Source of the DNA: an uncultured Acidimicrobiaceae bacterium
GTDB taxonomy: Bacteria; Actinomycetota; Acidimicrobiia; Spongiisociales; ZC4RG35
Assembly (NCBI GenBank): GCA_964558575.1
Contig: CAZLEQ010000004.1
Location: 28,156 to 92,155 of the forward strand
Reading direction: 5' to 3'
DNA length: 64,000 bases
Positions 17,795 to 41,672 of this stretch are shown one piece after another (the stretch's first letter is position 1; each line of letters starts with the position of its first letter). The notes under the pieces were generated by a model that saw nothing but the letters and a program-made list of their open reading frames with translations, was not told the DNA's origin and did not search any database. The position numbers and the translations under genes were made by a program.

Positions 17795-17795
<1 letters not shown>
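16998..17795 (-). CDS. ABC-2 type transporter permease
   Basis: 265 aa. Paralog of the downstream permease (FLFSGTFFPISQLP). ATGA overlap with the ATPase gene. Confidence 0.75.
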
Positions 17796-18721
<926 letters not shown>

Positions 18722-18886
18722 CAGTCGGACGACGGTAGTGCCCGGAGGTGACAAGTCTCGACGTGTTTGCCGGTCGACGGTGCGGTGCGCGCGCCGAACG
18801 CGCTTCTGGGCACGTTCGATGCTGCTCTCGGTCTGAGTGTGCACCGGACACGCGCTGGCCGCGCTCTCCCCCACGCTCGATCGGCG

Positions 18887-19381
18887 TCAGTAGCTGTCGA
18901 GCTTGATCACCTCGGCGGCTCGCTTCCTCCCTCCGAATTTGCGCGGCTCGGCGTCGGCGGTGGGATAACCGAGGGCGATCGCGTAACGAGCCACCGACAT
19001 GTCCGGCACGCCGAGGAAGGCGGCGGCGGCACGGTGGCGATGCAGGGTGACCGGGCATGATGCCACGCCGATCGCCCTGGCGGCCAGCATCATGTTCTGC
19101 GCCGCCCGGCCGATGTCGAACTCGTTGCCTCCCGGCTCTTGCACCAGGACGATCGTGGCCACAGAGTCGCGTACCGGCTGGGTGAAGTCACCGTGCTCGG
19201 CGAGACCCTGGAGCCGCTCCGGGTCGGTCACCCCGATGAACGACCACGATTGTTGGTTCTTCGAGCTACCGGTCCAGCGGCCAGCCTCGAGAATCGCTCC
19301 CAGGTCGTCGTTGCTGAGGAGTTCCGCCTCGTAGTCGCGTATGGCGCGCAGGCCGAGGATGAAGTCGTAGATGTCGGACAT
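18887..19381 (-). CDS. nitroreductase family protein
   Basis: 164 aa. [13 protein letters not shown] and [18 protein letters not shown] typical of the NfsB/nitroreductase fold. Confidence 0.75.
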
Positions 19382-19403
19382 GGTTGGAGACTATGCGCCT
19401 CGG

Positions 19404-34761: not shown

Positions 34762-34862
34762 GCGTCGATTGTCCCAGGCTCACCAGCAACGAGGAGTCAA
34801 CGGAGTCTCAAGGTTCCCTCAAGACGACGATGCGGAGACGACGGTGGTCGTAATCTCACACC

Positions 34863-35546
34863 GTGCCACGGATCGTCCTCATCGAAGACGACGTCGAGAT
34901 CAGACGACTCGCCGCCGGCGCTCTCGCCGAGCAGGGCCATGACGTCGAGAGCGCCGACCGTGCCCTCGAGGGTCTGGAGCTGGCGGTCAAGGGCAATCCC
35001 GACCTGGTGGTGCTCGACCTCGGACTTCCCGATATCGACGGGACCGAGCTCCTGGCGATGATCCGCGCCGTCAGCCAGGTCCCGGTGATCGTGATCACCG
35101 CCCGGGGAGCCGACGAGACGGTGGTCGCCACCCTGGACTCCGGCGCTGACGACTATCTGGTGAAACCCTTTTCGATGACCCAGCTGGAAGCCCGGGTGAG
35201 AGCTGTGCTCCGCCGCCGCGGCGGTGGGGTGCAGGAGAGCAGGATCTCAGTCGGAGAGTTGGTGGTCGACGTCCCCGCCCGCACCGCCACCCTCGGCGGC
35301 GAGACCCTCGACCTCAGCCCCAAGGAGTTCGACACGCTGCGAACTCTGGTCGAGCATGCCGGCGAGGTGATGACCAAACGCGAGCTGCTCGCCGAGGTGT
35401 GGCGCGAGCCATACGGCGGGTCCGACCACACCGTCGACGTTCACATCTCCTGGCTGCGCAAGAAGCTCGGTGAGACCGCCCAGCAGCCCCGATACATCCA
35501 CACGGTCCATGGCGTCGGGGTGAAGCTGGTCGACCCCGATCAGTGA
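34863..35546 (+). CDS. OmpR/PhoB family response regulator
   Basis: Receiver (IVLIEDD...LDLGLPDIDG...DDYLVKPF) plus winged-helix output. GTG start. Confidence 0.9.
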   Translation: MPRIVLIEDDVEIRRLAAGALAEQGHDVESADRALEGLELAVKGNPDLVVLDLGLPDIDGTELLAMIRAVSQVPVIVITARGADETVVATLDSGADDYLVKPFSMTQLEARVRAVLRRRGGGVQESRISVGELVVDVPARTATLGGETLDLSPKEFDTLRTLVEHAGEVMTKRELLAEVWREPYGGSDHTVDVHISWLRKKLGETAQQPRYIHTVHGVGVKLVDPDQ

Positions 35547-36805
35547 GACGCAGACTCGTCCTGCTCAGCTTGGCCACGACGGTGCTGGTCGTGGTGGCCT
35601 TCGTCGTGCCGCTCGGGCTCTTGGTTCGGAGACAGGCCGCGGACAGCGCCAAGGTGGCCGCAGAGCGGGACGCCCAGTCGGTGGCAGGGCTGGTCGCTCT
35701 CGCCTCGGGAGTCGGTGCCGGCTCCGCTGCGGTGGCCTCGGCCCTCGGGGACCTTCCCGAAGGGACCATCGTCGTTCTCGACGGCGACGTCCTCGGCGAG
35801 CCGCGTCAGGGGCAGGGCTCACTGGCAGCGGTGGCGGCCCAGTCCCGGAGCACCGTGGTCGACGAGGTGGACGGCGGCTGGGAGATCGCTCTCCCCGTGG
35901 TGAGTGTGTCCGGTGTCGCCGTGGTCGACTCGTTCGTCACCAGCGCCGAGCTCACTTCGGGGGTGATGACGGCGTGGGCCCTGCTCGGGCTGCTCGGCTT
36001 GGTCCTCATCGGCTTGGCGGTCTGGATCGCTGACCGTCTCGGCGGGAGCCTCACCAGCCCCATCGCCGACCTGGCCAGGTCCGCCCATCGGCTGGCAGAG
36101 GGCGACCTGAGCGTCCGGGTCGAGCCGTCCGACCCCGAGGAGCTGCGAGAGACCGGGGAGGCGTTCAACTACCTCGCCGAACGTCTCGACCAGCTGTTGG
36201 CCGAGGAGAGGGAGAGCGTCGCCGACCTCTCCCATCGCTTGCGCACACCCCTCACCTCATTGCGTCTCCAAGCCGAGGCCCTGGGCTACGAGGAGGAGCG
36301 CAAGGCGATGATCGGCCAGGTCGATCGTCTCGAGCACGCCATGAACCAGGTGATCGACCTGGCACGGTCGCGGGCGGCGCAGGAGCCCGGCGAGTGCGAC
36401 CTCGACCGGGTGGTCTCCGAGCGTGTCACCTTCTGGAGCGTCCTCGCCGAGGAGCAGGACCGCGACCTGACTTCCGAGCTGGCAGCCGCCGGGGCCAAGG
36501 TCCCGCTGAGCTCCGAAGACCTGGGAGTAGTGATCGACACCGTCGTCGGAAACGTCTTCGCCCATACCTCGCCCGGCACGGCATTCACCGTCCATAGCGG
36601 GGCGACTCCGGCTCCATGGTTCGAAGTCGCCGATCGGGGGCCGGGGTTCGGAGGGCAGCCGCTGGTCGAACGCGGCGCCAGTGGGTCGGGCTCGACCGGG
36701 CTCGGCCTCGACATCGTGCGCAAGACCGTCCAGGCGGCCGGGGGAACCGTGGATGCCCACGACCGCCCCGGGGGAGGGGCGGTCGTGAGGGTCAGCTTCG
36801 GCTGA
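35543..36805 (+). CDS. sensor histidine kinase (HAMP-HisKA-HATPase)
   Basis: Two TM helices. HAMP. H-box HRLRTPLTSLRL. G-boxes GLGLDIV. Overlaps the RR stop. Confidence 0.85.
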   Translation: MRRRLVLLSLATTVLVVVAFVVPLGLLVRRQAADSAKVAAERDAQSVAGLVALASGVGAGSAAVASALGDLPEGTIVVLDGDVLGEPRQGQGSLAAVAAQSRSTVVDEVDGGWEIALPVVSVSGVAVVDSFVTSAELTSGVMTAWALLGLLGLVLIGLAVWIADRLGGSLTSPIADLARSAHRLAEGDLSVRVEPSDPEELRETGEAFNYLAERLDQLLAEERESVADLSHRLRTPLTSLRLQAEALGYEEERKAMIGQVDRLEHAMNQVIDLARSRAAQEPGECDLDRVVSERVTFWSVLAEEQDRDLTSELAAAGAKVPLSSEDLGVVIDTVVGNVFAHTSPGTAFTVHSGATPAPWFEVADRGPGFGGQPLVERGASGSGSTGLGLDIVRKTVQAAGGTVDAHDRPGGGAVVRVSFG

Positions 36806-36808
36806 GAG

Positions 36809-37384
36809 TCAGCGCAGGTCGACTTCGATCTCCACCTCGACCCGGCCGTTCTTCAGCCGGGCCTCGAACTCGGCCTCGGCCTCGAGCCCTGAGGTGAGCT
36901 CGAGCTCGATGCGGTCGGGCTCGATCTTGTTGCGCTTCACCTTCCAGCCGGGAGCCGAGACGGAGACCAAGATGAGCTGGCCGGATCTCACCTCCAGGGT
37001 GACGGTCCCGACCCCAGGGATCAGGTGGGTGGTCACACCATCTGGAACCTGCCTGGCGTCACTGTCGGCGAAGCTGGTCGAAGTCGAGGAGGCGACGGAG
37101 GTCGACGTCGTCGAACTGAGACTCGTCGAGGTCGTTCCAGCGATGCTGGTCGAGGTCGAAGCATTGGCGCTCGTCGAGGTCGATGCCGGCATGCTCGTAG
37201 ACGGGGACGAGTTGGGGACGGTCACCTCGGTCGACGGTGTGGACACATCAGCCGAGACTCTGGCAGAAGTGTCGCTCTCAGCCGTGACCGACGTCGACGT
37301 CGCATCGCCACCGGCCCAGGCCACACCGACCACCGCCATCCCGGCGACGACCGCCGTGAACATGGCGAACATCTTCTTGACCAT
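36809..37384 (-). CDS. secreted Ser/Thr-rich protein, paralog of 34222..34761
   Basis: Signal peptide MVKKMFAMFTAVVAGMAVVGVAWA. TSTS low-complexity. C-terminal ...GTVTLEVRSGQLILVSVSAPGWKVKRNKIEPDRIELELTSG...VEVEIEVD shows the same architecture as the upstream paralog. Confidence 0.55.
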   Translation of the reverse strand: MVKKMFAMFTAVVAGMAVVGVAWAGGDATSTSVTAESDTSARVSADVSTPSTEVTVPNSSPSTSMPASTSTSANASTSTSIAGTTSTSLSSTTSTSVASSTSTSFADSDARQVPDGVTTHLIPGVGTVTLEVRSGQLILVSVSAPGWKVKRNKIEPDRIELELTSGLEAEAEFEARLKNGRVEVEIEVDLR

Positions 37385-38139: not shown

Positions 38140-38225
38140 GCGGCGGCGCAGGTTCCTGCCGCTCACGGAGATGAACATGGCCGCGGCACGCTAACAATGA
38201 CCTCGACGAACCGACAGGAGACCTC

Positions 38226-38900
38226 ATGGCAATCGATTTCACCGTCAGCGACGCGGCCGGGGAGCCTTGGGCCCTCTCCCAGCACCTCGATGCCGCGGTG
38301 GTGCTCACATTCCAGCGGGGAGATTTCTGAAGCTACTGTCACGGCCAGTTGGCCGTCATGGCGCAGCGGCACGGTGAGTTCCTGGAGCGGGGGGCGCGCG
38401 TCTTCGCCATCAGCGCCGACACTGCACCGATGAACGCCGCCATCGTCGAGAAACTCGCCCTCCCCTTCCCCATCCTCGCCGACCCGGGGCGGGACCTCCT
38501 GATCACACCGCTCGGGTTCGCCGACGAGACCGATCCCCGGGAGATCGCCCGTCCGGGGGCGGCCGTCTTCTCTCCCGAGGGCGACCTGATCTACTCCATG
38601 GTCGGACGCGACTACGCCGATCGTCCCGAGGAGGATGTCCTCCTGGAGCAAGTGACGTCGTTGGGACTGTCCCCGACCAGCCAGGGCCCTCCGAAGGTGG
38701 GCGTGGTGGAGCCCGGGGAGAAGGCGGTGCCCTTCGAAGGTCTCCCTCACTACTTCCGTGGGGCCAAGTTCACCGCCCTCGCCATCCGGCGACGTCATCG
38801 CGACCTCGGCGAAGACTTCGCTGACGACACCACGGCCTATCTGGCGATGGTCGAGCGCTATCTCGATGCATTGACCGAGGTGGAGGAGCGCAGGGAATAA
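38226..38900 (+). CDS. candidate selenoprotein: redoxin/Prx-like thiol peroxidase with in-frame UGA (Sec) in an FUSYC motif
   Basis: Continuous reading frame MAIDFTVSDAAGEPWALSQHLDAAVVLTFQRGDF-TGA-SYCHGQLAVMAQRHGEFLERGARVFAISAD...LALPFPILADPG...AAVFSPEGDL. Thioredoxin-fold AhpC/TSA family homology on both sides of the TGA. The TGA sits at the T/C position of the T/CxxC peroxidatic motif. Hairpin ACGGCC-AGUU-GGCCGU 11 nt downstream. Confidence 0.55.
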
Positions 38901-38909
38901 CCTCGCCCC

Positions 38910-39632
38910 ATGGAGGGGCCAAAGGTCCAGTTGTTCGTCACCTGCCTGGTCGACTCCCTCGCACCCGAGGTCGGCCGGGCCACGGTCGACGCGCTCGAGA
39001 AGGGCGGTTGCGTCGTGGAGTTCCCTCTCGACCAGGGATGCTGCGGCCAGCCCGCCTTCAACGTCGGGCTCGTCGATCATGCCCGGTCGATGGCCGCCCA
39101 CACCCTCGAAGTGCTCGACGCGACCGAAGGCCCGATCGTGGTCCCGTCGGGATCATGTGCGGCGATGATCGCTCGTCACTACCGCGGGCTCTTCAACGAC
39201 GCCGACCGGGCCCAACAGGTGATCCGGATCTCCTCGAGGATCCGCGAGCTGACCCAGTTCCTCGTCGATGATCTCGAAGCAGAGATCACCGCCTCTTGCC
39301 AAGGCTGCACCATCGCATACCACTACTCCTGTCACGGTCTGCGTGAGATGGGCCTGGACCATCAGGCAGACCGGCTGCTCCAAGATGTGGAGCGCGTCGA
39401 CCTCGAAGGGGCGACCGAATGCTGCGGATTCGGCGGCCTCTTCTCGGTGGAGATGCCTGCGGTCTCCGAAGCGATCATGGACGTCAAACTCGACCAGATC
39501 GAGGCGTCGGGGGCGAATACCGTGGTGGGCTCGGACATCTCCTGTCTGCTGCACATCGAGGGAGGGCTTCGCCGTCGCGGCTCCCCAGTGGCGGTCAAGC
39601 ACATCGCGCAACTCATCGGCGACGACTCGTGA
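38910..39632 (+). CDS. lutA: lactate utilization protein A, (Fe-S)-binding CCG-domain oxidoreductase subunit
   Basis: Two CCG motifs (CLVD...CCGQP and YHYSCH...CCGFGG). Confidence 0.85.
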   Translation: MEGPKVQLFVTCLVDSLAPEVGRATVDALEKGGCVVEFPLDQGCCGQPAFNVGLVDHARSMAAHTLEVLDATEGPIVVPSGSCAAMIARHYRGLFNDADRAQQVIRISSRIRELTQFLVDDLEAEITASCQGCTIAYHYSCHGLREMGLDHQADRLLQDVERVDLEGATECCGFGGLFSVEMPAVSEAIMDVKLDQIEASGANTVVGSDISCLLHIEGGLRRRGSPVAVKHIAQLIGDDS

Positions 39633-41029
39633 GCCAGCCCGTCACCTTCCTCTCCCGGGCCGAGGCCCTGATCGGCACCCATGAAGCCGACGCAGTGGCC
39701 CGAGGCGTCCGCAACTTCGTCGCTCTGCGTGAGCAGTCGATGGATGAGTTCCCGCAGATCGAGAAGCTGCGCCACCGGGCCCGGGCAGTCCGGCTCCATT
39801 CGCTCAAGCACCTCGACCGTCTCCTCGCCCGATTCGCCGACCAGTTGGAGGAAGCCGGCGGGCGGGTCCACTGGGCCGGTGACGCCGCCGAGGCGCGTGA
39901 GATCACGGCCCGGATACTCGCCGCGGCGAACGCCCGCCTCGTGGTCAAGTCGAAGTCGATGGTCTCCGAAGAGATCGAGATCAACCGTCATCTCGAATCC
40001 CTCGGCCTCGAGGTCCTCGAGACCGACCTCGGCGAGTTCATCGCCCAACTCGCCGGCGACACTCCCTCGCACATCATCGCCCCGGTCCTCCACATGACCA
40101 GGGAGGACGTGGGTCTGCTGTTCACCGAGAAACTGGGAGTCTCCTACACCAGTGACCCGTTCGAGCTGAATCGGATCGCGCGCTTCCACCTCCGTGACGT
40201 CTTCCTGCGCGCTGACGCCGGCATATCCGGGGTCAACATGGCGGTGGCCGAGTCAGGCTCGATCGTGCTGGTGACCAACGAAGGCAACGGCCGGCTCACC
40301 ACCACGGCCCCGCGGCTGCACATCGCCCTCATGGGCATGGAGCGAATCGTCTCCGGGTGGTCAGACGCCGCCGTCGTCCTCGAGACCCTGGCCCGATCGG
40401 CAACTGGACAACGTCTCTCGGTCTACACCAGCGTGATCACCGGGCCGCGACGCGAGGGGGATCCCGATGGCCCCGAGGAGGTCCACGTGATCGTCATCGA
40501 CAACGGACGCTCCCGGATACTCGCCGGGGAGACCGCCGAGATACTCGCCTGCATCCGATGCGGGGCCTGTCTCAACGTGTGCCCGGTGTTCCGCACCGCG
40601 GGAGGGCACGCCTACGGCACCGTCTATTCGGGTCCGGTGGGGTCGATCGTCACCCCGGGACTGCATGGCATGGACCCCTGGTGGGATCTTCCCTACGCCT
40701 CGACACTCTGCGGTGCCTGCGAGGAGGTCTGCCCGGTGCGCATCCAGATCCCGAAGATGCTGCTCGGGCTCAGGGAGCAGGCCGCCGCGGAAGGACGTCT
40801 TCCCGGATGGCTCGACAAGGGCATGTCTCGTTATGCCCGGACCAGCGCGGATCCGAGGCAATGGTCGAGGGCCAAGAAGTGGGCGTCACGGCTCGGCGGC
40901 CTCATCTCCACGCGGGGCTGGATACGGCGCTTGCCCGGGCCGGGGCGTGGCTGGACCCGGGGGCGTGACATGAGGCGTCCCGCCCGGGAGTCCTTCAACG
41001 ACTGGTGGAGATCACACCGTGGAACGTGA
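39629..41029 (+). CDS. lutB: lactate utilization protein B, 4Fe-4S subunit
   Basis: GTGA overlap with lutA. LUD/DUF162 domain plus CIRCGACLNVCPV and CGACEEVCPV clusters. Confidence 0.85.
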   Translation: MSQPVTFLSRAEALIGTHEADAVARGVRNFVALREQSMDEFPQIEKLRHRARAVRLHSLKHLDRLLARFADQLEEAGGRVHWAGDAAEAREITARILAAANARLVVKSKSMVSEEIEINRHLESLGLEVLETDLGEFIAQLAGDTPSHIIAPVLHMTREDVGLLFTEKLGVSYTSDPFELNRIARFHLRDVFLRADAGISGVNMAVAESGSIVLVTNEGNGRLTTTAPRLHIALMGMERIVSGWSDAAVVLETLARSATGQRLSVYTSVITGPRREGDPDGPEEVHVIVIDNGRSRILAGETAEILACIRCGACLNVCPVFRTAGGHAYGTVYSGPVGSIVTPGLHGMDPWWDLPYASTLCGACEEVCPVRIQIPKMLLGLREQAAAEGRLPGWLDKGMSRYARTSADPRQWSRAKKWASRLGGLISTRGWIRRLPGPGRGWTRGRDMRRPARESFNDWWRSHRGT

Positions 41030-41672
41030 CGCCTTCCTCACCCGTGTCGGCCGGGCATCCTTGACCTCGGTGCTGCCCGACCCTCCCCGCGTCGCCGGCT
41101 CGCTCAGGGAGCCCGATGGCATCGACCTGCTCGAATTGTTCCGGGCGCGGGCCCAGGCGGTCAACGCCGTCATCCACGGGCCGGTCAGCCGTCATGGCGT
41201 TCCCCGCGCGGTGGCCGCCATCGCCGGAGGACATGACGCAGAGACCTTCGTGACGTGGGACGACCTCCCGGTCAGCGGTGTGGCGGCCACGCTGCAGTCG
41301 GCCGGGGTGAGGCGAGTCGACCATTGGGTCCCCGACAAGGACCGGGCCGAGCACAACCTGTCCTACCGCGACCTCGACATGGGCGTCACCGGGGCGCATG
41401 CCGCCCTGGCCGAGAGTGGCAGCCTGGTGCTCATGCACGGCGAGGGGAGACCTCGCATGGCCAGTCTCATCCCTGACGTCCACATCGCTCTGCTCGAGGT
41501 GGCTGCCGTCGAGTGGACGTTGGCCTCCTGGGCGGAGAAAAACCCCGATTTGGTGGCGGAGACGACGAATCTGGTGGTCGTCACCGGTCCGAGCCGGACC
41601 GGAGACATCGAACTTCAGCTCAATCTCGGTGTTCACGGGCCGAGACATGTCCACATCGTGATGATCAGATGA
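41019..41672 (+). CDS. lutC: lactate utilization protein C (LUD domain)
   Basis: 217 aa. LUD-domain pattern (GVTGAHAALAESGSLVL). Confidence 0.8.
   Translation: MERDAFLTRVGRASLTSVLPDPPRVAGSLREPDGIDLLELFRARAQAVNAVIHGPVSRHGVPRAVAAIAGGHDAETFVTWDDLPVSGVAATLQSAGVRRVDHWVPDKDRAEHNLSYRDLDMGVTGAHAALAESGSLVLMHGEGRPRMASLIPDVHIALLEVAAVEWTLASWAEKNPDLVAETTNLVVVTGPSRTGDIELQLNLGVHGPRHVHIVMIR

What the first reader, a model, noticed from the sequence alone, without database searches (positions are those of the whole stretch)
38226..38900. Candidate selenoprotein: Prx-like redoxin with UGA at the T/CxxC position and a downstream hairpin
The reading frame is continuous across a single TGA (about 38328..38330). 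The translation on both sides is homologous to AhpC/TSA-family redoxins such as AhpE (VVLTFQRGDF-U-SYCHGQL vs LVFFPLAF-T-GICQGEL). The TGA falls at the Thr/Cys position of the T/CxxC motif three residues before the conserved peroxidatic Cys. This UxxC configuration is the arrangement I recall for Prx-like selenoproteins; I did not search to confirm it. A 6-bp GC stem with an AGUU loop starts 11 nt after the UGA, where a bacterial SECIS would lie. The ORF finder only reported the downstream part from an internal TTG.
Basis: partly seen in the sequence, partly recalled or inferred. Interest (0 to 1): 0.8.

Follow-up and report, generated by a model that had tools for sequence, protein, structure and literature searches.

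The report
Unannotated selenocysteine redoxin gene (UxxC)
This is a real but mis-annotated gene for a peroxiredoxin-like redox protein whose internal "stop" codon almost certainly encodes selenocysteine; the protein type is already known, so it is a solid new example and not a new kind of biology.

Summary
ORF 38226..38900 (+) has one in-frame TGA at 38328..38330. The Pfam AhpC/TSA match (E 1.3e-19) spans it. The TGA sits at the T/C position of T/CxxC, three residues before the Cys that aligns with the peroxidatic Cys.

All 29 orthologous loci from different genomes (nearly all Acidimicrobiia MAGs, 53-70% identity) carry TGA at exactly this codon, with conserved coding sequence on both sides. 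So do four more distant relatives. Full-length distant homologues have Cys there (RGDW-C-xxC-NGQL against RGDF-U-xYC-HGQL).

The hairpin ACGGCC-AGUU-GGCCGU starts 11 nt after UGA. It contains the only long invariant nucleotide run in the gene (12 nt, synonymous sites frozen, rare TTG Leu). There is no covariation, and its folding energy alone is not significant.

It matches the known "Prx-like thiol:disulfide oxidoreductase" selenoprotein family (PF00578, UxxC).

Clade-specific features:
- a C-terminal two-helix extension with no Pfam match;
- first gene of an operon with lutABC (9-12 nt gap to lutA);
- public protein entries are nearly all cut to about 180 aa.

The Sec machinery (selA/B/C/D) is not in the window and could not be checked genome-wide.

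Verdict: new member of a known kind, moderate interest.

The parts
38216..38221 (+). Shine-Dalgarno-like AGGAGA, 4 nt before the start codon
   Evidence: Read directly from the sequence. In orthologues, conservation of the reading frame begins at this start position.
38226..38900 (+). Complete selenoprotein gene: 224 residues including Sec35, then a TAA stop
   Evidence: 28 orthologues have exactly 225 codons.
38229..38594 (+). AhpC/TSA (thioredoxin-fold, peroxiredoxin-like) domain, residues 2-123
   Evidence: Pfam PF00578, E 1.3e-19. PDB sequence matches to ResA and PrxQ. Foldseek matches to PrxQ/BCP.
38328..38330 (+). UGA codon 35, read as selenocysteine; N-terminal residue of the UxxC redox motif
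   Evidence: TGA in 30/30 aligned loci. Cys at this position in distant full-length homologues.
38337..38339 (+). Cys38 (TGT), second residue of UxxC; aligns with the peroxidatic Cys of Prx and the second Cys of ResA's CxxC
   Evidence: Cys in 28/28 orthologues, with TGC and TGT both used.
38341..38356 (+). SECIS-like hairpin ACGGCC-AGUU-GGCCGU; the invariant core is 38342-38355
   Evidence: - RNAalifold gives a 5-bp stem kept in 30/30 sequences, with one G-C to G-U change.
- Cells paired: 98.3%.
- It holds the longest invariant nucleotide run of the CDS (12 nt; the next longest are 6 and then 3 or fewer).
- Codons 39-42 are each a single codon in 28/28 orthologues.
38628..38897 (+). C-terminal extension, about 90 residues. 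The two long helices are residues ~170-190 and ~196-223. It carries the conserved YFRGAKF..AL.R.RHR motif.
   Evidence: - AF2 model, pLDDT 91.
- No Pfam match.
- Not covered by PDB matches.
- Shared with the Cys homologues.
38910..39632 (+). lutA-like gene (two CCG cysteine-rich domains), 9 nt after the selenoprotein stop
   Evidence: Pfam CCG, E 3.8e-27. Adjacent in 28 of the 29 loci; the 29th (L033) ends inside the selenoprotein gene. The gap is 9-12 nt in 26 of the 29 sequences compared, window included.
39629..41029 (+). lutB-like gene (LUD domain plus 4Fe-4S dicluster)
   Evidence: Pfam LUD_dom, E 1e-49, and Fer4_8. Synteny.
41019..41672 (+). lutC-like gene (LUD domain)
   Evidence: Pfam LUD_dom, E 1.1e-27. 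Synteny.

Best explanation
The gene 38226..38900 encodes a cytoplasmic, 224-residue peroxiredoxin-like thiol:disulfide oxidoreductase. Codon 35 (UGA) is decoded as selenocysteine, which gives a UxxC redox centre (Sec35-Ser-Tyr-Cys38) at the N-terminus of helix alpha1 of a thioredoxin fold.

Decoding (inferred). While the ribosome is at the UGA, SelB carrying Sec-tRNA(Sec) binds the small mRNA hairpin 38341-38356. The hairpin's loop, AGUU, presents G and U 18-19 nt after the UGA, and Sec is inserted instead of termination.

Chemistry (inferred from the family). Sec35 is the exposed nucleophile. It attacks an oxidised substrate (a disulfide, or possibly a peroxide) and then forms a selenenylsulfide with Cys38, which a thiol reductant recycles. 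The canonical peroxiredoxin catalytic residues are not kept, so a thioredoxin/ResA-type exchange reaction is more likely than classical peroxidase catalysis.

Operon. In this Acidimicrobiia clade the gene is the first cistron of an operon with lutABC. This suggests, but does not show, a role linked to the Fe-S/CCG-domain lactate-oxidising complex.
For: Shown:
- There is a single in-frame TGA, and the AhpC/TSA match spans it.
- TGA is at the identical codon in 29 loci from different genomes and in 4 independent assemblies, with flanks F[HQ]RGDF-TGA-[ST]YCHGQLAV conserved.
- Four more distant relatives also have TGA there, in the context RGDW-TGA-PYC.
- Full-length homologues have Cys at that column (RGDW-C-xxC-NGQL) and share the C-terminal domain.
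- The annotated start, Met45, is not conserved (ATG in 21/28). The truncated ORF would therefore lack both the redox centre and a reliable start.
- TGA is the ordinary, predominant stop codon of the window's genes, so the genetic code is not reassigned.
- Hairpin. GGCCAGTTGGCC is the longest invariant run in the CDS (12 nt; the next are TTCTGA, 6 nt, and then 3 nt or fewer), against a mean third-position identity of 0.60.
- Of 86 conserved degenerate codon columns only 7 use a single codon, and 4 of those are the consecutive codons 39-42. These include TTG Leu, which makes up 17% of Leu codons elsewhere in the gene.
- The stem is kept in 30/30 sequences, and the only change is G-C to G-U.
- The distant Sec clade has a different hairpin at the same place: an 8-bp bulged stem with a GGUC loop. 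GGUC is also the loop computed for the E. coli fdhF SECIS.
- U35 aligns with the first Cys of ResA's CxxC.

From the literature:
- The Prx-like PF00578 UxxC family is an established predicted selenoprotein family (PMC1088965, PMC2398784, PMC13188914, PMC5029168).
- Sec machinery is reported in another order of the class Acidimicrobiia (bioRxiv 10.64898/2026.04.03.716425).
Against: - No selA, selB, selD or tRNA-Sec was found in the 64-kb window or in any fetched locus, and the rest of the source genome could not be searched.
- The hairpin is invariant, so it offers no compensatory changes.
- Its energy in context is not better than shuffled sequence (z = -0.41).
- An alternative bulged pairing is also 93% maintained.
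- No curated Rfam family matches. Bacterial SECIS elements are said to be poorly represented in Rfam (10.64898/2026.04.03.716425), so this is weak negative evidence.
- There is no experimental evidence of selenium incorporation.
- The substrate and the reductant are unknown.
Confidence: 0.9

Rival explanations
1. The TGA is a genuine stop. The locus would encode a 34-residue leader peptide and a separate 180-183-residue protein that starts at Met45 or Leu42, as all database annotations have it.
For: Gene callers produced this model for the window and for essentially all 120 top database hits. Upstream 34-38-residue ORFs are called separately.
Against: - The split would cut a thioredoxin fold just before helix alpha1, removing strands beta1-beta3 and the redox residue.
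- The upstream 34 codons are conserved as protein, in the same frame, with no gaps, in 29 loci.
- Codon 45 is not a start codon in several orthologues: CTC, ATC, TCG and ACG occur.
- Cys homologues are continuous across this point.
Confidence: 0.03
2. UGA is read through, but not as selenocysteine. Either the hairpin stimulates near-cognate insertion of Trp or Cys, or there is a lineage-specific suppressor tRNA.
For: The Sec machinery was not found in the sequence available. Hairpins downstream of stop codons can stimulate read-through in other systems (general knowledge).
Against: - The position is the nucleophilic residue of a CxxC/UxxC redox motif, where Cys occurs in homologues. This is the classic Sec/Cys pairing.
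- If Cys or Trp were what is inserted, TGC, TGT or TGG would be expected in some of the 33 Sec-type loci. None occurs.
- The distant clade carries a GGUC-loop hairpin like the SelB-binding fdhF element.
- The Sec trait exists in the class (10.64898/2026.04.03.716425).
Confidence: 0.05
3. The gene is a pseudogene, or the TGA is an assembly or sequencing error.
For: None beyond the presence of an internal stop.
Against: The same TGA is in four independent Logan assemblies and in 29 different genomes. The frame, length (225 codons in 28 loci) and protein sequence are all conserved.
Confidence: 0.01

Closest known systems
Prx-like thiol:disulfide oxidoreductase selenoprotein. This is 'Prx-like 1' of the GOS/Sargasso surveys; the example listed in PMC13188914 is WP_010940744.1.
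   Same: PF00578 domain. Sec is the first residue of a thioredoxin-like UxxC motif, where true Prx have TxxC. Cys (CxxC) homologues exist. A bacterial SECIS-type hairpin lies directly downstream (PMC1088965, PMC2398784 Table 2, PMC13188914).
   Different: - This subfamily has a C-terminal two-helix extension of about 90 residues with no Pfam match.
- It is found in Acidimicrobiia.
- In that clade it heads a lutABC operon.
- I could not align it directly with the published reference sequences, so whether it belongs to the same orthologous group was not tested.
SelL and SelL-related redox proteins (NCBIfam NF040769)
   Same: Prx-like fold with the redox motif at the same position (UxxU or CxxC). 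It is the best NCBIfam match.
   Different: The score is 35 bits against a cut-off of 120, covering only residues 2-91, so this is not a member. It has one Sec, not two.
Selenoperoxiredoxin PrxU (NCBIfam NF040737; TxxU)
   Same: AhpC/TSA fold and a selenoprotein.
   Different: In PrxU, Sec replaces the peroxidatic Cys (TxxU). Here Sec replaces the Thr and the Cys is kept (UxxC). The score is 25.9 against 270. The Prx Pro and Arg are not conserved.
ResA/TlpA/CcmG-type CxxC thiol-disulfide oxidoreductases
   Same: It is the best solved-structure sequence match (4nmu, E 5e-5). The CxxC aligns residue for residue with UxxC.
   Different: Those proteins are membrane-anchored and extracytoplasmic and use Cys. 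This protein starts directly at strand beta1 with no signal or anchor sequence, and scores 31 against 170 for NF002854.
E. coli fdhF bacterial SECIS
   Same: A stem-loop in the coding sequence just 3' of the UGA, with G and U in a 4-nt apical loop. The fdhF loop GGUC is at nt 22-25 counted from the U of UGA, and the window loop AGUU is at nt 20-23.
   Different: - The conserved part is much shorter (a 5-6 bp stem, 16 nt).
- No bulged U.
- The loop is AGUU rather than GGUC.
- The G and U lie 2 nt closer to the UGA.
- SelB binding is untested.

Membership tests
Bacterial selenoprotein gene (Sec-decoded UGA) | In-frame UGA conserved among orthologues, with coding conservation on both sides | tested here: met
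   TGA is present in 30/30 aligned sequences, and flanking residues are conserved upstream and downstream. 28 orthologues have exactly 225 codons.
Bacterial selenoprotein gene (Sec-decoded UGA) | Homologues with Cys aligned to the UGA position | tested here: met
   P0132, P0137, P0141, P0142, P0154, P0156, P0184, P0187 and P0191 have RGDW-C-xxC aligned to RGDF-U-xYC.
Bacterial selenoprotein gene (Sec-decoded UGA) | SECIS-type stem-loop immediately downstream of the UGA, with G/U in the apical loop | tested here: met
   The hairpin 38341-38356 is kept in 30/30 sequences and its synonymous sites are frozen. Caveats: there is no covariation, and the energy z-score of -0.41 is not significant alone. 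The criterion as I recalled it was not run through bSECISearch.
Bacterial selenoprotein gene (Sec-decoded UGA) | selA, selB, selD and tRNA-Sec present in the same genome | not testable with these tools
   They are absent from the 64-kb window and the fetched flanks. Machinery is reported in another Acidimicrobiia order (10.64898/2026.04.03.716425).
Bacterial selenoprotein gene (Sec-decoded UGA) | Selenium demonstrated in the protein | not testable with these tools
   This needs 75Se labelling or mass spectrometry.
Prx-like thiol:disulfide oxidoreductase selenoprotein (PF00578, UxxC) | AhpC/TSA (PF00578) domain above Pfam's gathering score | tested here: met
   70.8 bits against 26, residues 2-123.
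Prx-like thiol:disulfide oxidoreductase selenoprotein (PF00578, UxxC) | Sec as the first residue of UxxC, at the position of Prx TxxC / Trx-like CxxC | tested here: met
   Alignments to ResA (CxxC) and to PrxQ/BCP (TxxC). The family definition is in PMC1088965 and PMC2398784 Table 2.
Prx-like thiol:disulfide oxidoreductase selenoprotein (PF00578, UxxC) | Orthology with the published reference sequences (for example WP_010940744.1) | not tested
   The reference sequence could not be retrieved with these tools.
Catalytic peroxiredoxin (PxxxTxxC plus conserved Arg) | Pro at -7 and Thr at -3 relative to the peroxidatic Cys | tested here: not met
   Position -7 is Arg31, invariant in the RGD[FW] motif. 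Position -3 is Sec35.
Catalytic peroxiredoxin (PxxxTxxC plus conserved Arg) | Conserved active-site Arg before the beta-strand about 70 residues downstream of the peroxidatic Cys | tested here: inconclusive
   Arg108 lies next to the aligned position. It is R, K or L among orthologues and is not kept in the Cys homologues.
SelL-related redox protein (NCBIfam NF040769) | Score at or above the curated cut-off | tested here: not met
   35.1 bits against a cut-off of 120.
LutABC lactate-utilisation operon (as an accessory first gene) | Conserved adjacency and co-orientation with lutA, lutB and lutC | tested here: inconclusive
   Adjacent in 28 of the 29 main-clade loci (the 29th ends inside the gene), mostly with 9-12-nt gaps. 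In that clade the upstream genes are also syntenic. The distant Sec forms (L038, L042) and the Cys forms (L036, L037) are not next to lut genes.

The most novel reading that the evidence does not exclude
The UxxC selenoprotein could be a dedicated redox partner of the LutABC complex. The HdrB-like CCG-domain subunit LutA would reduce, or be protected by, the Sec-Cys selenenylsulfide. That would couple lactate oxidation to a selenol/thiol relay. The clade-specific C-terminal helical hairpin would serve as the docking module.

A second, smaller novelty is also possible: an unusually minimal 16-nt SECIS with an AGUU tetraloop that is sufficient for an Acidimicrobiia SelB.
Probability: 0.12. Interest if true: 0.65.

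Novelty: new member of a known kind. Interest (0 to 1): 0.38.

Why it matters
- It adds a well-supported selenoprotein to Acidimicrobiia, a widespread and mostly uncultured actinobacterial class for which selenocysteine use has only just begun to be reported.
- It exposes a systematic annotation error. Essentially all of the top 120 public entries for this family are truncated just after the UGA and so lack the redox centre.
- It supplies a very clean, short candidate SECIS that could help train bacterial SECIS and selenoprotein predictors for high-GC Actinomycetota.
- The tight operon with lutABC gives a testable hint about what a Prx-like UxxC protein does. The function of this family is still unknown.
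- It does not change current understanding of selenoprotein biology.

Tried and rejected
- Rfam at gathering thresholds on the whole window, and at E<=10 on 38200-38500, gave no relevant family.
- ARAGORN on the window and on 29 loci found no tRNA at all, and hence no tRNA-Sec.
- tblastn of E. coli SelA, SelB and SelD against the window and all loci gave no hits.
- I scanned the window for other same-frame ORF pairs split by TGA. The only candidate (17795..19390, minus strand) is two ordinary adjacent genes, a nitroreductase-like gene and an ABC ATPase.
- Single-sequence folding energy as evidence for the hairpin is not significant, so I did not rely on it.
- Covariation is absent because the element is invariant. 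An alternative bulged pairing modelled on the distant clade is less well kept (93% against 98%).
The representative search, alignment A3 and the AF2 model therefore cover only residues 36-224.
- The afdb50 fold library was unavailable.
- The cluster look-up gave no accession for the source genome.
- A general functional link to lutABC was rejected as a family-wide property, because distant Sec and Cys relatives lie in other contexts.
- Classification as a true peroxiredoxin, as SelL-related, as PrxU or as ResA was rejected on catalytic residues and on curated cut-offs.

Full report
**1. The observation**

The window reads ATG at 38226, preceded by AGGAGA at 38216-38221. A single frame then runs to TAA at 38898-38900. 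It is interrupted only by TGA at 38328-38330, which is codon 35. With Cys substituted at codon 35, Pfam AhpC-TSA matches residues 2-123, across the TGA, at 70.8 bits against a cut-off of 26. Redoxin also matches.

In sequence alignments to solved structures, residue 35 aligns with the first Cys of the CxxC of ResA (4nmu) and with the Thr of TxxC in archaeal PrxQ/BCP (2ywn, 2cx3). Cys38 aligns with the peroxidatic Cys. The hairpin is ACGGCC (38341-38346), AGUU (38347-38350) and GGCCGU (38351-38356). Its first base is the 11th nucleotide after the UGA. The one small correction is that the stem has five G-C pairs plus one A-U pair.

**2. Is it more than chance? Comparative evidence**

A search of 5.8 billion proteins returned 193 relatives. 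Essentially all of the best 120 (58-100% identity) are about 180 aa long and cover only the C-terminal 80% of the query. They start at Met45, just after the TGA. That pattern is what gene callers produce when a whole family carries an internal UGA.

The identical protein fragment lies on four independent metagenome assemblies, all with the same TGA. This excludes a sequencing error. A scan of one genome per species found 29 loci, nearly all labelled Acidimicrobiia MAGs, at 53-70% identity.

All 29 loci share the following:
- the codon is TGA;
- the upstream 34 codons are conserved in the same frame without gaps;
- the motif reads F[HQ]RGDF-TGA-[ST]YCHGQLAV;
- 28 of them have exactly 225 codons.

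The annotated start, codon 45, is ATG in only 21 of 28. Elsewhere it is a non-start codon. TGA is the usual terminator of the window's genes, so the genetic code is not reassigned.

An exhaustive HMMER search with residues 36-224 found 300 relatives at the 50%-cluster level. Among them are full-length proteins of 213-257 aa. These have Cys exactly where the window has TGA (RGDW-C-[PAS][YFW]-C-NGQL) and share the C-terminal region. More distant truncated relatives were traced to their DNA (L038-L042). They again have TGA at this column, in the context RGDW-TGA-PYC. A conserved UGA, conserved flanks and Cys homologues together are the standard bioinformatic signature of a selenoprotein.

**3. 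The RNA element**

Across the 28 full-length orthologues the mean third-position identity is 0.60. The longest fully invariant nucleotide run in the whole CDS is the 12-nt GGCCAGTTGGCC, or 16 nt at 27/28 or better. The next longest is TTCTGA (6 nt), and everything else is 3 nt or shorter.

Of 86 conserved, degenerate codon columns only 7 use a single codon. Four of those are the consecutive codons 39-42 (CAC GGC CAG TTG), followed by GCC at 96%. Elsewhere in these genes GGC makes up 36% of Gly codons and TTG 17% of Leu codons. Selection therefore acts on the nucleotides, not only on the protein.

RNAalifold gives a 5-bp stem, CGGCC/GGCCG, with loop AGUU, kept in 30/30 sequences. The single substitution turns G-C into G-U, which preserves pairing. 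The sixth pair, A-U, is present in 27/30.

Limits on this evidence:
- There are no compensatory changes, because the element is invariant.
- Folding energy in context is not better than shuffles (z = -0.41).
- A bulged alternative pairing is also 93% kept.
- Rfam has no matching family.

The distant Sec clade gives independent support. At the same place it has a different hairpin, an 8-bp bulged stem GCCAGCU/AGC(N)UGGC with a GGUC loop. GGUC is also the apical loop I computed for the E. coli fdhF SECIS, at nt 22-25 from the U of UGA. The corresponding positions are nt 20-23 in the window and nt 24-27 in the distant clade.

**4. What the protein is**

The AF2 model of residues 36-224 is confident (pLDDT 91.2, pTM 0.85). 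It shows the Prx/Trx core followed by two long helices. Foldseek against the PDB matches PrxQ/BCP over only about 100-115 columns, and the last 90 residues have no Pfam match. The C-terminal helical hairpin, with its conserved YFRGAKF...AL.R.RHR motif, is therefore a subfamily-specific addition. The Cys homologues share it.

The classical peroxiredoxin catalytic set is not kept. The Pro at -7 is an invariant Arg, the Thr is Sec, and the downstream Arg varies (R/K/L). Curated NCBIfam models are all far below their cut-offs: SelL-related 35 against 120, ResA 31 against 170, PrxU 26 against 270.

The best-fitting known category is the 'Prx-like thiol:disulfide oxidoreductase' selenoprotein. [quoted passage not shown] It is listed as 'Prx-like 1, pfam00578, UxxC' in the GOS survey, with 225 selenoproteins (PMC2398784 Table 2). 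It remains 'predicted with high confidence' in a 2026 review (PMC13188914) and was counted in 28 sequenced bacteria (PMC5029168).

The mechanism is inferred by analogy with CxxC oxidoreductases. Sec35, at the N-terminus of helix alpha1, is the attacking nucleophile. Cys38 resolves the intermediate to a selenenylsulfide, and a cellular thiol system reduces it again.

**5. Context**

Upstream lie a response regulator and histidine kinase (34854-36805), a Ser/Thr-rich protein and a divergent DUF6198 membrane protein. Downstream are lutA (CCG domains), lutB (LUD plus 4Fe-4S) and lutC (LUD).

The arrangement DUF6198(-) | selenoprotein(+) | lutABC(+) is found in all 29 loci wherever the DNA extends far enough. 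The gap from the selenoprotein stop to the lutA start is 9-12 nt in 26 of the 29 sequences compared (window plus 28 loci), and the genes overlap in one. The selenoprotein gene is therefore very likely the first cistron of a four-gene operon.

However, the whole neighbourhood is syntenic in this clade. The distant Sec forms (L038, L042) and the Cys forms (L036, L037) sit in unrelated contexts. The lut link is clade-specific, and it is only a hint to function.

**6. What could not be shown**

No tRNA gene of any kind (so no tRNA-Sec), and no selA, selB or selD, occur in the window or the fetched loci. A 2026 preprint reports complete Sec machinery in all 84 closed genomes of Actinomarina, which belongs to the order Actinomarinales in the class Acidimicrobiia (10.64898/2026.04.03.716425). 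That shows the trait exists in the class, but not in this lineage. No other selenoprotein candidate was found in the window.

**7. Verdict**

This is an unannotated selenoprotein of the known Prx-like UxxC type, with a short, strictly conserved SECIS-like hairpin.

The novelty is modest:
- a new lineage and subfamily, with a C-terminal helical extension and a lutABC operon;
- a clear case of systematic mis-annotation.

The most novel reading still open is a functional coupling to the CCG-domain LutABC complex, at about 0.12.

Noticed in passing
window 38898-38900 and the orthologous stops in L005-L032: The genuine terminator of the selenoprotein gene is TAA in 27 of the 29 sequences compared (window plus 28 loci). 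About 85% of the long high-GC3 ORFs in the window end in TGA. This may be avoidance of a second UGA in a Sec-decoded mRNA, or a constraint from coupling to lutA.
   Followed up: partly
window 38325-38331: The codon before the UGA is TTC in 28/28 orthologues, although TTT is used for 17% of Phe codons elsewhere. The base after the UGA is A in 29/30. This suggests selection on the immediate context of the recoded stop.
   Followed up: partly
window 38871-38873 (codon 216, Leu TTG): This is a second near-frozen rare TTG Leu codon (96%), close to the 3' end of the gene and 37 nt before the lutA start. The cause is unknown. It may be part of the lutA translation-initiation region.
   Followed up: no
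L038:3965-4012, L040:1295-1342, L041:171-218, L042:2125-2172: Distant Sec-containing relatives (RGDW-U-PYC) carry a different downstream hairpin: an 8-bp bulged stem with a GGUC loop. L042 instead has a 7-bp stem with a CGUGC loop. They are not linked to lutABC.
   Followed up: partly
window 38900-38910 and the orthologous junctions: The selenoprotein stop and the lutA start are 9-12 nt apart in 26 of the 29 sequences compared, and overlap (ATGA) in L023. This implies co-transcription and probably translational coupling.
   Followed up: yes
window 17795-19390 (minus strand): Two high-GC3 segments lie in the same frame, joined by TGA at 18887-18889. They look superficially like a second recoding candidate. 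They are simply a nitroreductase-like gene followed by an ABC-transporter ATPase that has its own start.
   Followed up: yes
window 36809-37384 (minus strand): A 191-aa protein with a hydrophobic N-terminus and a long Ser/Thr-rich stretch. It has no Pfam match and is conserved next to the two-component system in some related genomes.
   Followed up: no
protein P0159: A 7691-aa protein matches residues 151-189 of the query in 30 separate stretches. This is probably a coiled-coil or low-complexity resemblance to the C-terminal helix and not homology.
   Followed up: no
database entries P0001-P0120: Essentially all of the top 120 public protein entries for this family are N-terminally truncated at or near Met45, and are labelled 'hypothetical protein' or 'AhpC/TSA family' where they carry a name at all. 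The upstream 34-38-aa fragments are called as separate tiny ORFs.
   Followed up: yes
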